Positions 4,088 through 46,247 of a stretch of 64,000 nucleotides of DNA are shown piece after piece. Every line of letters starts with the position of its first letter. The first letter of the stretch is position 1. The notes beneath the pieces were generated by a model. The model was given only the letters and a program-made list of their open reading frames with translations. It was not told where the DNA came from and ran no database searches. A program made the position numbers and the translations under genes. The stretch is from the NCBI RefSeq assembly GCF_001677475.2, contig NZ_CP015229.1; one strand, written 5' to 3'. The DNA comes from Escherichia coli. GTDB lineage: Bacteria; Pseudomonadota; Gammaproteobacteria; Enterobacterales; Enterobacteriaceae.

Positions 4088-4120
4088 AAAAAAAGGCCCC
4101 TGTTGAATGGGCAGGGGCCT
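4088..4120 (-). terminator. Rho-independent terminator downstream of cutC
   Basis: GC-rich hairpin AGGCCCCTG...CAGGGGCCT followed by a T-run on the minus strand. Confidence 0.5.
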
Positions 4121-4166
4121 GGTACGAGCAAGCATCATATTGGGCGACATGATGCAACGGTAAAAA

Positions 4167-4922
<756 letters not shown>

Positions 4923-7442: not shown

Positions 7443-7456
7443 TCGCGTTATACGGC

Positions 7457-7490
7457 AAAAGCCGATGTCATAGCAGACATCGGCTTTTTT
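7457..7490 (+). terminator. Rho-independent terminator after argS (possibly bidirectional with flhE)
   Basis: AAAAGCCGATGTC...GACATCGGCTTTTTT hairpin with flanking A and T runs. Confidence 0.6.
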
Positions 7491-22122: not shown

Positions 22123-22154
22123 AAAAAAAAGCAGCGGTACGTCGTTACCGCTGC
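22123..22154 (-). terminator. Rho-independent terminator after flhC
   Basis: GCAGCGGTA...TACCGCTGC hairpin followed by a run of 8 U on the minus strand. Confidence 0.6.
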
Positions 22155-22180
22155 TGGAATGTTGCGCCACACCGTATCAG

Positions 22181-22759
22181 TTAAACAGCCTGTACTCTCT
22201 GTTCATCCAGCAGTTGTGGGATAATATCGGCACGATTCTGGGAAAGTTTACGTCTTTTTACTGCCCGGGATGGCGGTTGACATAAGCTGCAGGCAAAGCT
22301 GCCAACAGGCTGGTGAGCGTGGGTAATAAAATTGCCGCCGCAGCAGTTGCAGCTGGAAAGTTGCAGTAATCCACTTTCAACAAACCGCACCAATGTCCAG
22401 GCACGGGTTAATGCCAGCAGCGGTCCTTCTTTTGCTTGCGGGCACTGTTCAAGGTATAAACGGTAAGCTTTGATCACCGCATCGACGCCATTACACAAAC
22501 CGGTTTTCAGTAAAAACTGCCATGCATTACAGAACATCGAAGCATGAACATTTTGTTCCCAGGTCATAAACCAGTCGGTTGAGAATGGCAGCATGCCTTT
22601 CGGCGGTGGGCTTCCGCGCAGTTCTTTATAAAGTTTTATCAGGCGTCCGCGACTTAACTGTGTTTCGCTTTCCAACATCTGCAAACGAGCGCCCAGGGTG
22701 ATCAATTCCATTGCCAGCTGAATATCCCGCGCTTCCTGAACAATGCTTTTTTCACTCAT
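22181..22759 (-). CDS. flhC: Flagellar master regulator subunit FlhC
   Basis: 192-aa ORF with Cys-cluster zinc site. Confidence 0.96.
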
Positions 22760-22761
22760 GA

Positions 22762-23121
22762 TCAGGCCCTTTTCTTGCGCAGCGCTTCTTCAGGCTGATT
22801 AACATCATTCAGCAAGCGTGTTGAGAGCATGATGCCGGTATGAATTTGCTGGAGATCGTCAACGCGGGAATCTTGCGTCAACTGAGTAATCGTCTGGTGG
22901 CTGTCAAAACGGAAGTGACAAACCAGTTGATTGGTTTCTGCCAGCTTAACCATTTGCGGAAGAGTCAGTGCCGCTAACGTTGTCGCCATTTCTTCATTTA
23001 TGCCGAGACGAAACATTGCGGACGCTTTGTCCTGAACAATCAGACGCTGTGCAAGTAGTAAATATGACAAGTTGATGTCATAAATGTGTTTCAGCAACTC
23101 GGAGGTATGCATTATTCCCAC
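22762..23121 (-). CDS. flhD: Flagellar master regulator subunit FlhD
   Basis: 119-aa ORF; an alternative start at [12 protein letters not shown] would give 116 aa. Confidence 0.93.
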
Positions 23122-23892
23122 CCAGAATAACCAACTTTATTTTTATGCGGTCTCACCGCACCCCGTGATGTCGCCGGGAAGCCCCGGTAAAAAATAATTA
23201 GCATTAGAATAGTTGCGATAAGCTGCAATAGGCAGAGCCCCTTTTTGGGATTTAATAAGTCCTTACAAATAGAAGGGGTTCTTTACACTTATCTAAGATT
23301 TTTCCTAAATCGACGCAACTTTACTCGTCACTACACGCACATACAACGGAGGGGGGCTGCGATTTTCAATAATGTGTGATGCAGATCACACAAAACGCTC
23401 AATTACTTAACATAAATGTATAAGTCATACTTTTGTTTTGGGTGTATTTCAATCTGTTAAAAAGTTTTTCGCGACGCTAGCAAGCAAAAATGAAACAGGA
23501 ATAATCGAAATGGGATGTTGCGCACAGTTAAAATAACTCACCGTAAATAATCATCTGCTATAAATAATTGCTTTAATGCAATACCAGATAAGCTATTTTT
23601 AAACAGACACTTACCGCACAACAAACTAATTAAATACAAAGAAAGGCAACAATCAACTTAATGTTAATAAAATGTTTTACATATATTAACCACTTGTTTA
23701 ATATGGAGAATCAGTACATTATTTTCTTATAATTACAGTTGAAATCATATGATCACCGAGAGTGATTGATTAATTGTATTTACTAATAATCAGACTAATA
23801 TTTACCTGTTTGACTGAGTTGGGATTGCGTCGATTCTCCATTAGGAGTAAAGCTTTAATGTCACCTGAAGTTCACAGAATAAGGAACAGGTT

Positions 23893-30268: not shown

Positions 30269-31064
30269 GGTTCTCTCCAGCTTTAGTGTCGTTTTGTGTA
30301 GGGCAAAAACGAATGACTTTCGTTAAATTAATCGGAAAACAAAGCATTACCTTTTAACTAAAAGATAAGTGACCGTGTTGACATAGTTTTAGCGAGAAAT
30401 TAATTCTCCATAGGAGAGCAATATCACATCGCAGAATTACAGTGAGAACGTGCATAAATTTAGCGGGAAAAGACATAAGGGAAAGCCAATTTGTCAGACA
30501 AATTGTCGAATGCACAGCAGATTAATCCATAAGATTAGCTTGGAAATCCTTGTTGTCTTTGGTACCCATGCGGGATGTCTTCTTTTTAACCACTCAATAG
30601 GCCGCATTACCTGGTGTTGAGTTTTTGAAATGGTGTAATAACCGCAACTCAAAGATGTGGAAAATGCGCGTCATTCATTTCGCCATTAATTATCACCGTG
30701 CTCATTAATTAACAGAACACGTATACTGAGAGCCATATCGCAAAAATGAAAAAACGTTTTAAAAAATCATTGCTTCATCATGAATTCAAATACACCTATT
30801 AATATCAACAAGATACAAAAAGCACCATCATTAAAATTCATTGCAGTTACATTGATTTCATCAATGAAATGTAAAAATATATAAACTTGATGATTTAAGC
30901 ATTTTCTTATACCCGTTCAGACGTTATTCTTATTTCAGATCATCGTCAGAATTGACTCCACGATCACATTTCGGACCGGCAGAAAGGAATTATTCTGCAA
31001 ACAGTAATTATGGTGTTTTGATTTATCTTGCACCTCTCCACTTCTGGATATAAGGATATTAGGT

Positions 31065-31898: not shown

Positions 31899-32012
31899 CG
31901 TAAACTCCTGATAGCATTTTGAAAGCCGTTATAGTAGCGGCTTCACATCTTCAGCGATAGTCACATCCACCGTCATCAGGACACAAAAAAACCTGCCGGA
32001 GCAGGTTTTTTG

Positions 32013-32099
32013 TTATCGGAACATATTGCCTGGCGGTACGTCTTTGAACGTCTTGCAATAGTTATTGAACATACTTTTCAGGATTTTGCGCAGTTTCAT
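32013..32099 (-). CDS. azuC: Small protein AzuC (28 aa)
   Basis: Hand-translated minus-strand ORF MKLRKILKSMFNNYCKTFKDVPPGNMFR; too short for the supplied ORF track; hairpin terminator at 31985..32011. Confidence 0.85.
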   Translation of the reverse strand: MKLRKILKSMFNNYCKTFKDVPPGNMFR

Positions 32100-32361
32100 C
32101 GCGGCACTCCGACCATTTGTTATACAGGTGTTATTTTCTTTGCACTTATAATATGACAACCATCACAAAAATCAATCTTTATGTGATGTAAATCACATAA
32201 ATACCCCTTTAATGTTATAAAAATGATAATCAAAAAGCAGCACCCCCATTTCTGACACCTACAGATGGCAAGAAATAGCGCCTGCCAGGCGTCTTTTCCG
32301 GCCATTGTCGCAGCGCTGTAACACGTAAAATAGTGCTTTCTCTTACTCTTCTGGCTGGACC

Positions 32362-35759: not shown

Positions 35760-35954
35760 ACGCTTTTCCTTGTGGATCTCAACTCGCCAGCACCTATCTT
35801 ACATGCCGGTCCGTATCAGAGATACTTTTTGAGTGGCTTTGCCGGTGATTAAAAATCAAGGAGGGTGTAACGACAAGTTGCAGGCACAAAAAAACCACCC
35901 GAAGGTGGTTTCACGACACTGCTTATTGCTTTGATTTTATTCTTATCTTTCCCA

Positions 35955-39498: not shown

Positions 39499-39957
39499 AG
39501 GAATATCTCCAGAAATAGGGATAACGCTACTGATAGTTAGTCATTCGTATATTAGCGGTTTTTATTGCAACTTTGAAACGTTAAAAATGGTGGGTATTCG
39601 ATTTTTCTCTCGTTTTTGTAAATTCGATTGTCCACAGTTATGGTCACGCCCGTCACCAACGGCTTCCGGGATCGTTTCACAGTAAGCCCTGCGATGAAAT
39701 GTGACAAAAATTGACTTTATTCAGCAAAAATGAAAATCAGCCCGCTGAATATGTAACATTAATTAACCCGAACAATACGGGCAAAAAACATTCATGATAA
39801 AAATATTTATTGGTCATTATATTAACGTATTTTATAGCACTGCCGATATCACGCTCAAAAAACAACCACTGCTATTTTTAGCAAAGCTTATGGTATACTC
39901 CGCCGCCTTAACATTTTTCACCGCAAATTTTTCATTGCAACATGACGAGGAAAATAA

Positions 39958-40182
39958 ATGAGTACGCCTGATTTTTCTACTGCCGAGAATAATCAAGAAC
40001 TGGCAAATGAAGTCTCCTGCCTGAAAGCGATGCTGACGCTGATGCTGCAGGCGATGGGACAAGCTGACGCGGGCCGCGTGATGTTAAAGATGGAAAAACA
40101 GCTTGCGCTGATCGAAGACGAAACCCAGGCTGCAGTATTTTCCAAAACGGTTAAGCAAATTAAACAAGCCTACCGTCAGTAA
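39958..40182 (+). CDS. yecF: Uncharacterised protein YecF
   Basis: 74-aa ORF at the syntenic position. Confidence 0.85.
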
Positions 40183-40971: not shown

Positions 40972-41200
40972 AGTAAACCGCAACGCCCCTGAGAGTGAGT
41001 ATCATTTATAATGATAATTCAAACTATCACATAAATAAGATTTATATATAATTTATATTATTCAGGCAATGAATTACTTTTGCAAGCCATCGCATTCTCT
41101 TATGTTATTAATGAGTTATGCTGATTTGTTAAGCAGTTTTATCTCGCTTGAAATGGCGTCCCGCCCCGACAGGTGAATCGTCGGGGCTGATTTTTTCTTA

Positions 41201-45928: not shown

Positions 45929-46104
45929 GATAAACAGCCCTGCGTTATATGAGTTATCGGCATGATTATCCGTTTCTGTAGAGGATTTAATCGGATGAAT
46001 AGTGGGTGAAATGGGGGGTTATTTGGGGGTTACCGGTAAATTGCGGACAGAAAAAACCCCGCCGGTGGCGGGGGAGCACGTTGCTGACAAATTACCATTC
46101 ATGT

Positions 46105-46206
<102 letters not shown>

Positions 46207-46247
46207 TTTGGCGTTGCCGTCAGTCTCAGTTAATCAGGTTACGACGA

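What the first reader, a model, noticed from the sequence alone, without database searches (positions are those of the whole stretch)
32013..32099. 28-aa AzuC coding sequence missed by the ORF track, within the ferritin-paralog cluster
Hand translation of the minus strand gives MKLRKILKSMFNNYCKTFKDVPPGNMFR with a stop and an intrinsic terminator, matching the known small protein AzuC. It is below the length threshold of the supplied ORF list. It shows that short genes in other intergenic gaps of this window would also be invisible to the track.
Basis: partly seen in the sequence, partly recalled or inferred. Interest (0 to 1): 0.25.

Follow-up and report, generated by a model that had tools for sequence, protein, structure and literature searches.

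The report
Known E. coli small gene azuC
The 28-codon reading frame is real and is the well-studied E. coli gene azuC, carried on the short dual-function RNA AzuCR, so the finding is correct but ordinary.

Summary
Window 32013..32099 (minus strand) translates without interruption to MKLRKILKSMFNNYCKTFKDVPPGNMFR plus a stop. The 87 bases are identical to azuC (b4663) of E. coli K-12. The peptide scores 75.9 bits against the NCBIfam equivalog "stress response protein AzuC" (cutoff 30). It sits between yecJ and yecR, flanked by ftnB and ftnA, as in annotated E. coli genomes.

All published parts of the 164-nt AzuCR RNA are intact:
- two CRP boxes
- a sigma-70 promoter
- the FnrS pairing site
- a GGAG ribosome-binding site
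- a stretch that pairs with the cadA start region
- an intrinsic terminator

As a check independent of the literature, I found the same module upstream of yecJ in five other enterobacterial genera. Substitutions there concentrate at third codon positions (4/6/17), and pN/pS is 0.14 in frame against more than 2 out of frame.

[quoted passage not shown] Its wider point also holds: the K-12 small gene yecU lies in one of the gaps it proposed to scan.

Novelty: already known. Interest: low.

The parts
32013..32099 (-). azuC coding sequence, 28 codons plus TAA stop
   Evidence: Translation. 100% nucleotide identity to K-12 b4663. NCBIfam NF033642 at 75.9 bits against a cutoff of 30. pN/pS 0.14 across six genera.
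31978..32141 (-). AzuCR transcript. It is 164 nt per Raina et al. 2022; RefSeq annotates azuR as 159 nt, which maps to 31983..32141.
   Evidence: The +1 of K-12 (position 1988001, PMC8915982) maps to window 32141 through alignment A1 and BLAST. The only difference from K-12 inside the RNA is C to A at +6.
32148..32175 (-). Sigma-70-type promoter: -35 TTGATT (32175..32170), 16-nt spacer, -10 TATTAT (32153..32148). The -10 ends 7 nt upstream of +1.
   Evidence: Consensus scan. TTGA of the -35 and TATTAT of the -10 are invariant across six genera.
32182..32197 (.). Distal CRP box, a perfect TGTGA-N6-TCACA
   Evidence: Pattern search. The GTGA and TCAC half-sites are largely conserved across six genera. 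CRP repression of azuC is published (PMC8915982).
32152..32167 (.). Proximal CRP-like box (TGTGATGGTTGTCATA, one mismatch), overlapping the spacer and the -10 hexamer
   Evidence: Pattern search. The half-sites (TGTGA and TCATA) are near-invariant across six genera, while the central 6-nt spacer varies. Its position fits repression by promoter occlusion, which is my inference.
32124..32130 (-). FnrS pairing site CACCUGU, 25-31 nt upstream of the ATG
   Evidence: Position given in PMC8915982. It is complementary to the FnrS 5' end GCAGGUG read from K-12. The block AACACCTG is invariant across six genera.
32107..32110 (-). Shine-Dalgarno GGAG, 7 nt before the ATG
   Evidence: Read from the sequence. 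Conserved as GGAG or GGGG across six genera.
32028..32061 (-). Predicted AzuR seed region (RNA nt 81-114, codons 13-24) that pairs with cadA -16..+18
   Evidence: Windowed duplex scan against K-12 cadA. Duplex energy -32.6 kcal/mol. This agrees with the published statements that pairing is near the cadA RBS and lies inside the azuC ORF. The exact published coordinates are in figures I could not read.
31985..32011 (-). Intrinsic terminator: A6, stem CCUGC, loop UCCG, stem GCAGG, U7. It is symmetrical, so it could act in both directions.
   Evidence: Fold. The stem and U-run are invariant while the loop varies across six genera. It also accounts for the sub-threshold Rfam STnc370 and rsmX hits.

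Best explanation
This is the E. coli azuCR locus. A CRP-repressed sigma-70 promoter drives a transcript of about 164 nt that ends at an intrinsic terminator. The transcript is translated into the 28-residue, cationic, amphipathic protein AzuC. [quoted passage not shown] The same RNA, as AzuR, base-pairs through a stretch inside the ORF with the cadA and galE mRNAs and represses them, so translation and pairing compete. The sRNA FnrS pairs with the 5' UTR and lowers AzuC synthesis under anaerobiosis.

Shown here: sequence identity, integrity of every cis element, synteny, and protein-level purifying selection.

Taken from the literature, not tested here: GlpD binding, membrane localisation, target repression and the regulation.
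For: - Exact translation. The CDS is 100% identical to K-12 azuC and the RNA has a single 5'-UTR difference.
- NCBIfam equivalog hit at 75.9 bits against a cutoff of 30.
- The exact peptide is AZUC_ECOLI and occurs on at least 1000 contigs, the tool's counting cap.
- The region matched 5419 of 5426 complete E. coli genomes, and all 15 listed hits annotate azuC there.
- Promoter, two CRP boxes, FnrS complementarity and terminator are all present.
- An extended predicted duplex forms with the cadA start region.
- The module is conserved next to yecJ in Enterobacter, Kosakonia, Kluyvera, Leclercia and Pluralibacter.
- Variable columns by codon position are 4/6/17. Mean pN/pS is 0.14 in frame, against 2.9 and 2.1 in the shifted frames.
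- The helical hydrophobic moment of residues 1-20 is 0.53, against 0.24 +/- 0.12 for shuffles (1.3% reach it). Net charge is +6.
- Function and regulation come from PMC8915982, PMC10746267 and PMC12612679.
Against: I found nothing substantive against it.

Minor points:
- The local Pfam scan returned no family, although the precomputed tables list PF28150:AzuC for the orthologues.
- No Rfam family covers the RNA.
- My duplex scan could not single out one galE site.
- The published 7-bp FnrS site is not the top unconstrained duplex.
- Expression in this particular strain is inferred, not measured.
Confidence: 0.97

Rival explanations
1. The locus makes only a non-coding sRNA (the original IS092/IsrB annotation), and the 28-codon frame is a chance ORF that is not translated into a functional product.
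For: The RNA was first described as an sRNA and does act by base pairing (PMC8915982). ORFs of 20-50 codons are very common by chance in this region: 86 ORFs of at least 20 aa in 5 kb.
Against: Across six genera, substitutions concentrate at third codon positions and pN/pS is 0.14 in this frame only. A GGAG lies at the correct spacing. Tagged and untagged protein and ribosome footprints have been reported for the identical K-12 sequence (PMC8915982; PMC10746267).
Confidence: 0.02
2. The real gene is the longer 48-aa ORF that starts at the TTG at 32159, as the mechanical ORF list reports it.
For: the ORF listing gives 32013..32159 as one ORF from the first in-frame start codon.
Against: The TTG lies 18 nt upstream of the mapped transcription start at 32141, inside the promoter spacer. 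The 5' UTR carries indels that are not multiples of three in the other genera, so the extension is not conserved as a reading frame. The GGAG sits in front of the ATG at 32099.
Confidence: 0.01

Closest known systems
AzuC / AzuCR (IS092, IsrB; b4663/b4434) of Escherichia coli K-12
   Same: The coding sequence and peptide are identical. The neighbours are the same (yecJ, yecR, ftnB, ftnA). The promoter, CRP boxes, FnrS site, RBS, pairing stretch and terminator are all the same.
   Different: Within the RNA there is one substitution (+6 C to A), and one more lies just upstream of +1. The host is a non-K-12 E. coli about 98% identical to MG1655 across the window. I saw no functional difference.
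AzuC orthologues of other Enterobacteriaceae (Pfam PF28150 in the precomputed tables)
   Same: They have the same position directly upstream of yecJ and the same cis-element layout. The peptides are 81-93% identical, with KILK, YC, and TFKDVPPG..MF invariant.
   Different: Most are 27 aa, with TGA where E. coli has the Arg28 codon CGA. Kluyvera has a 2-codon insertion. An MFS transporter gene and an rpiB-like/DUF3666 gene lie between azuC and yecR in those genera and are missing in E. coli. Synonymous changes fall inside the stretch that pairs with cadA in E. coli.
Other dual-function RNAs: SgrS/SgrT and Spot 42/SpfP (E. coli), VcdRP (Vibrio cholerae)
   Same: Each is a short transcript that both encodes a small protein and base-pairs with mRNAs. 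They act on carbon metabolism, and Spot 42 and VcdRP are also CRP-repressed (PMC8915982; PMC12612679).
   Different: There is no sequence relationship. In AzuCR the pairing region lies inside the ORF, so the two activities compete, and the protein activates an enzyme rather than inhibiting one.

Membership tests
AzuC small protein (NCBIfam NF033642 equivalog; UniProt AZUC_ECOLI) | Sequence matches the family model above the curated cutoff | tested here: met
   75.9 bits against a cutoff of 30, E = 1.3e-21, covering model positions 1-26 of 26. The exact sequence is named AzuC by NCBI and UniRef. The local Pfam copy gave no hit.
AzuC small protein (NCBIfam NF033642 equivalog; UniProt AZUC_ECOLI) | Orthologous position: minus strand between yecJ and yecR, in the ftnB-ftnA cluster | tested here: met
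   The K-12 and strain A14 annotations and BLAST mapping of the K-12 features onto the window agree.
AzuC small protein (NCBIfam NF033642 equivalog; UniProt AZUC_ECOLI) | Reading frame maintained by selection (a real coding sequence) | tested here: met
   Six genera: variable columns 4/6/17 by codon position, and pN/pS 0.14 in frame against more than 2 in the shifted frames.
AzuC small protein (NCBIfam NF033642 equivalog; UniProt AZUC_ECOLI) | Amphipathic helix compatible with peripheral membrane association | tested here: met
   Hydrophobic moment 0.53 at 100 degrees for residues 1-20, reached by 1.3% of shuffles; net charge +6. This is a sequence property only. Localisation is published for K-12.
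AzuC small protein (NCBIfam NF033642 equivalog; UniProt AZUC_ECOLI) | Protein is made, binds GlpD and raises dehydrogenase activity | not testable with these tools
   Known only from experiments on the identical K-12 sequence (PMC8915982; PMC10746267).
AzuCR/AzuR dual-function sRNA | Discrete short transcript: own promoter, +1 at the K-12 position, intrinsic terminator | tested here: met
   Promoter hexamers correctly spaced from the mapped +1. Terminator hairpin plus U7. All are conserved in six genera. The transcript itself was not observed.
AzuCR/AzuR dual-function sRNA | CRP binding sites at the promoter | tested here: met
   A perfect box at 32182..32197 and a one-mismatch box at 32152..32167. 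Only 3 such matches occur in the whole 64-kb window.
AzuCR/AzuR dual-function sRNA | FnrS pairing site 25-31 nt upstream of the ORF | tested here: met
   CACCUGU at 32124..32130 is complementary, with one G-U pair, to FnrS nt 1-7 GCAGGUG.
AzuCR/AzuR dual-function sRNA | ORF-internal stretch complementary to the cadA ribosome-binding region | tested here: met
   RNA nt 81-114 pair with K-12 cadA -16..+18 at -32.6 kcal/mol. I used the K-12 cadA because the strain's own cadA is outside the window.
AzuCR/AzuR dual-function sRNA | Complementarity to a site inside the galE coding sequence | tested here: inconclusive
   Four candidate duplexes of similar energy (-24 to -26 kcal/mol) and none stands out. 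The published site is in a figure that is not held.
AzuCR/AzuR dual-function sRNA | Match to a curated RNA family model | tested here: not met
   No Rfam 15 family reaches its threshold. There are only sub-threshold, terminator-driven hits to STnc370 and rsmX. No hit covers the body of the RNA, so Rfam gives no evidence for or against identity.

The most novel reading that the evidence does not exclude
The protein-coding function may be the older and more strongly constrained one, and the AzuR-cadA pairing may be a later addition specific to Escherichia. The whole module (CRP boxes, FnrS box, ORF, terminator) is shared by at least six genera. Yet synonymous third-position changes fall inside the stretch that pairs with cadA in E. 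coli. Predicted pairing of the other genera's RNAs to E. coli cadA drops from -32.6 to between -19 and -27 kcal/mol. The comparison is one-sided because their own cadA leaders were not examined, so compensatory changes are not excluded.
Probability: 0.3. Interest if true: 0.3.

Novelty: already known. Interest (0 to 1): 0.06.

Why it matters
It matters little as a discovery. azuC was identified as an sRNA gene in 2002 and as a small-protein gene in 2008. It was characterised as a dual-function RNA in 2022, and RefSeq annotates it routinely. Its value here is as a positive control: the first-stage reader can recover a true 28-codon gene from raw sequence. It also confirms that length-thresholded ORF tracks hide real genes in this window; yecU is a second case. 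The comparative data bear slightly on the open question, raised by the authors, of how the two activities of AzuCR evolved.

Tried and rejected
By their stated minimum of 30 residues, the search of protein representatives, structure prediction and the look-up of encoding contigs cannot take it either, so I did not try them. I went through the neighbour YecJ instead (then 10 contig look-ups).
- The local Pfam scan gave nothing.
- The paper's supplement, which holds the conservation and FnrS figures, is not held as text.
- An unrestricted RNAduplex run gave meaningless full-length duplexes. I replaced it with a 26-nt windowed scan.
- The simple terminator scan missed the azuC terminator. I confirmed it by folding.
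- I searched the araF-ftnB gap and the azuC-yecR gap for remnants of the DJ-1/PfpI, MFS and rpiB-like genes found in other genera. There were none.
yecU escapes that scan because it runs past the gap boundary.
- I considered and rejected three alternatives: the 48-aa TTG-extended ORF, an sRNA-only reading, and an inactivated allele.

Full report
**Observation.** There is no frameshift. Two bases after the stop begins AAAAAACCUGCUCCGGCAGGUUUUUUU, which folds into a terminator hairpin followed by a U-run. The consensus terminator scan did not report it. I think the A/U extension of the stem absorbs the T-run, but I did not test that. With a 20-aa threshold, the mechanical ORF list shows the frame only as a 48-aa ORF extended to a TTG at 32159.

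**Identity.**
- A 501-base query around the ORF matches 5419 of 5426 complete E. coli genomes, and all 15 listed hits annotate azuC and yecR under the match.
- In strain A14 and in K-12 MG1655 the local gene order is araF, ftnB, yecJ, azuC, yecR, ftnA, yecH, tyrP.
- The window's CDS is 100% identical in nucleotides to K-12 b4663.
- The peptide hits the NCBIfam equivalog NF033642 "stress response protein AzuC" at 75.9 bits, against a cutoff of 30.
- The exact sequence is AZUC_ECOLI and is seen on at least 1000 contigs, the tool's counting cap.
- The window as a whole is a non-K-12 E. coli, collinear with MG1655 from about 1.954 to 2.014 Mb at roughly 95-98% identity.

**Anatomy of the locus.** K-12 annotates an overlapping ncRNA, azuR (b4434). 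Raina et al. 2022 (PMC8915982) describe a 164-nt transcript, AzuCR, starting at K-12 position 1988001. Through the alignment, +1 is window 32141, the 159-nt RefSeq feature is 31983..32141, and a 164-nt RNA ends at 31978.
- **Promoter.** A -35 TTGATT and a -10 TATTAT lie at 32175..32148, and the -10 ends 7 nt before +1.
- **CRP boxes.** A perfect box (TGTGA-N6-TCACA) lies at 32182..32197. A one-mismatch box at 32152..32167 overlaps the -10. These are two of only three such matches in the 64 kb. This fits the published CRP repression.
- **FnrS site.** The paper places it 25-31 nt upstream of the ORF. That is CACCUGU at 32124..32130, complementary to the FnrS 5' end GCAGGUG read from K-12.
- **RBS.** GGAG (32110..32107) precedes the ATG by 7 nt.
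- **Differences from K-12.** Inside the RNA the only difference is C to A at +6.

**Base-pairing region.** The paper says AzuR pairs near the cadA ribosome-binding site, and inside galE, through a stretch within the azuC ORF.
- A 26-nt windowed duplex scan against K-12 cadA places the best RBS-proximal duplexes at RNA nt 81-114 (window 32061..32028), pairing with cadA -16..+18. The duplex energy for the 34-nt stretch is -32.6 kcal/mol.
- For galE, several sites score alike and I could not single one out.

**Independent test of coding.** Direct protein searches refuse a 28-aa query, so I searched with the neighbour YecJ and fetched ten loci from other genera.
- An azuC orthologue lies directly upstream of yecJ in Enterobacter, Kosakonia, Kluyvera, Leclercia and Pluralibacter. 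In Pluralibacter no gene was called and tblastn found it.
- None is present beside yecJ in the Salmonella, Citrobacter portucalensis, Yokenella, Buttiauxella or Cedecea loci.
- The six-genus alignment conserves both CRP boxes, TTGA of the -35, the -10, the AACACCTG FnrS box, GG.G of the Shine-Dalgarno, the ORF and the terminator stem. The terminator loop and the downstream sequence vary.
- In the ORF, variable columns fall 4/6/17 on codon positions 1/2/3. Mean pairwise pN/pS is 0.14 in frame, against 2.9 and 2.1 in the shifted frames.
- Indels in the 5' UTR are not multiples of three, which rules out the TTG-extended 48-aa reading. That TTG also lies upstream of the transcription start.
- Residues 1-20 have a helical hydrophobic moment of 0.53, reached by 1.3% of shuffles, and net charge is +6. 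This is consistent with the published amphipathic, membrane-associated protein.

**Mechanism.** For the identical K-12 sequence, the literature reports the following.
- AzuC localises to the inner membrane, co-purifies with GlpD and increases dehydrogenase activity, probably by promoting GlpD membrane binding.
- AzuR represses cadA and galE by direct pairing, as shown with compensatory mutations.
- Translation and pairing compete.
- FnrS represses AzuC synthesis.
- Ribosome profiling shows azuC among the sORFs most strongly induced under severe acid stress, alongside glpD.

I shown here only that every sequence element needed for this is intact in the window. The biochemical steps are inferred by identity.

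**Comparison and novelty.** This is the gene itself, not a relative, so it is already known. It omitted the sRNA function, which is also published.

Its wider point, that short genes are invisible to a length-thresholded track, is right in at least one further case: K-12 yecU (58 aa) maps to 39794..39971, inside one of the three gaps it named. The other two gaps contain no K-12-annotated small protein. My crude scan there found nothing convincing.

**Residual novelty.** The paper asks how the two activities evolved. In my alignment, synonymous changes fall inside the cadA-pairing stretch, and the other genera's RNAs pair less well with E. coli cadA. This hints that protein coding is the dominant, older constraint. 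The test is one-sided because the other genera's own cadA leaders were not examined, so I rate this reading at about 0.3.

Noticed in passing
window 39794..39971 (+): The orthologue of K-12 yecU (b4752, 58 aa) overlaps the start of yecF. The window allele has one extra T in a T-run (about 39928-39932). This shifts the frame near the end and gives a 55-aa product with a different C-terminus. I do not know which allele is the common one.
   Followed up: partly
window 7445..7485: K-12 yecV (14 aa) and yecT are absent. About 770 bp of K-12 sequence between argS and flhE is replaced by about 40 bp.
   Followed up: no
window about 23411..23418: There is no IS1 upstream of flhD, unlike MG1655, which carries IS1H there. 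The BLAST blocks abut with an 8-bp overlap, consistent with the undisrupted target site. A perfect CRP box lies at 23375..23390 in the flhD-uspC intergenic region.
   Followed up: no
window 46520..47381 and 57002..62104: Two stretches have no megablast match to the K-12 region. The first is the central part of fliC, presumably a different flagellin type. The second is about 5.1 kb where K-12 has yedN/intG.
   Followed up: no
window 4088..4394(-), 22123..22217(-), 23091..23311(+), 35888..35954(-), 41060..41196(+), 46051..46242(-): Six other K-12-annotated small RNAs map into the window at 95-100% identity: MicL, MotR, AsflhD, 3'ETS-leuZ, SdsN and FliX. An ORF track would not show these either.
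   Followed up: partly
L018 2833..2916 (Pluralibacter metagenome contig): An intact 28-aa azuC orthologue (MKLRKILKSMFDNYCNTFKDVPPGNMFR), with promoter and terminator, was not called as a gene in the source annotation.
   Followed up: yes
L009, L010, L014, L016, L017 (upstream of yecJ): azuC is absent beside yecJ in the sampled Salmonella, Citrobacter portucalensis, Yokenella, Buttiauxella and Cedecea loci. This indicates patchy loss, or gain, within Enterobacteriaceae.
   Followed up: partly
L010-L013, L015, L018 compared with window 32100..32361 and 30269..31064: In other genera an MFS transporter gene and an rpiB-like/DUF3666 gene lie between azuC and yecR. In several of them (Salmonella, Citrobacter, Kosakonia, Kluyvera, Leclercia) a DJ-1/PfpI gene lies in the interval that in E. 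coli separates ftnB from araF. E. coli lacks all three, and no remnants are detectable in the window.
   Followed up: partly
window 32013..32018 (codon 28 and stop); alignment A2 columns 201-206: E. coli and Pluralibacter have an Arg codon (CGA/AGA) followed by TAA. The other four genera have TGA at that codon. A single C/T change therefore toggles the protein between 28 and 27 residues.
   Followed up: yes
window 31953..32017 (+): There is a sub-threshold Rfam hit to Salmonella sRNA STnc370 (33.4 bits against a gathering score of 54) on the opposite strand. The alignment rests almost wholly on the symmetrical terminator hairpin, so I treat it as an artefact.
   Followed up: partly
window 32013..32099: The tools disagree here. 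The local Pfam-A scan finds no family for AzuC, whereas the precomputed tables attach PF28150:AzuC to the orthologues.
   Followed up: no
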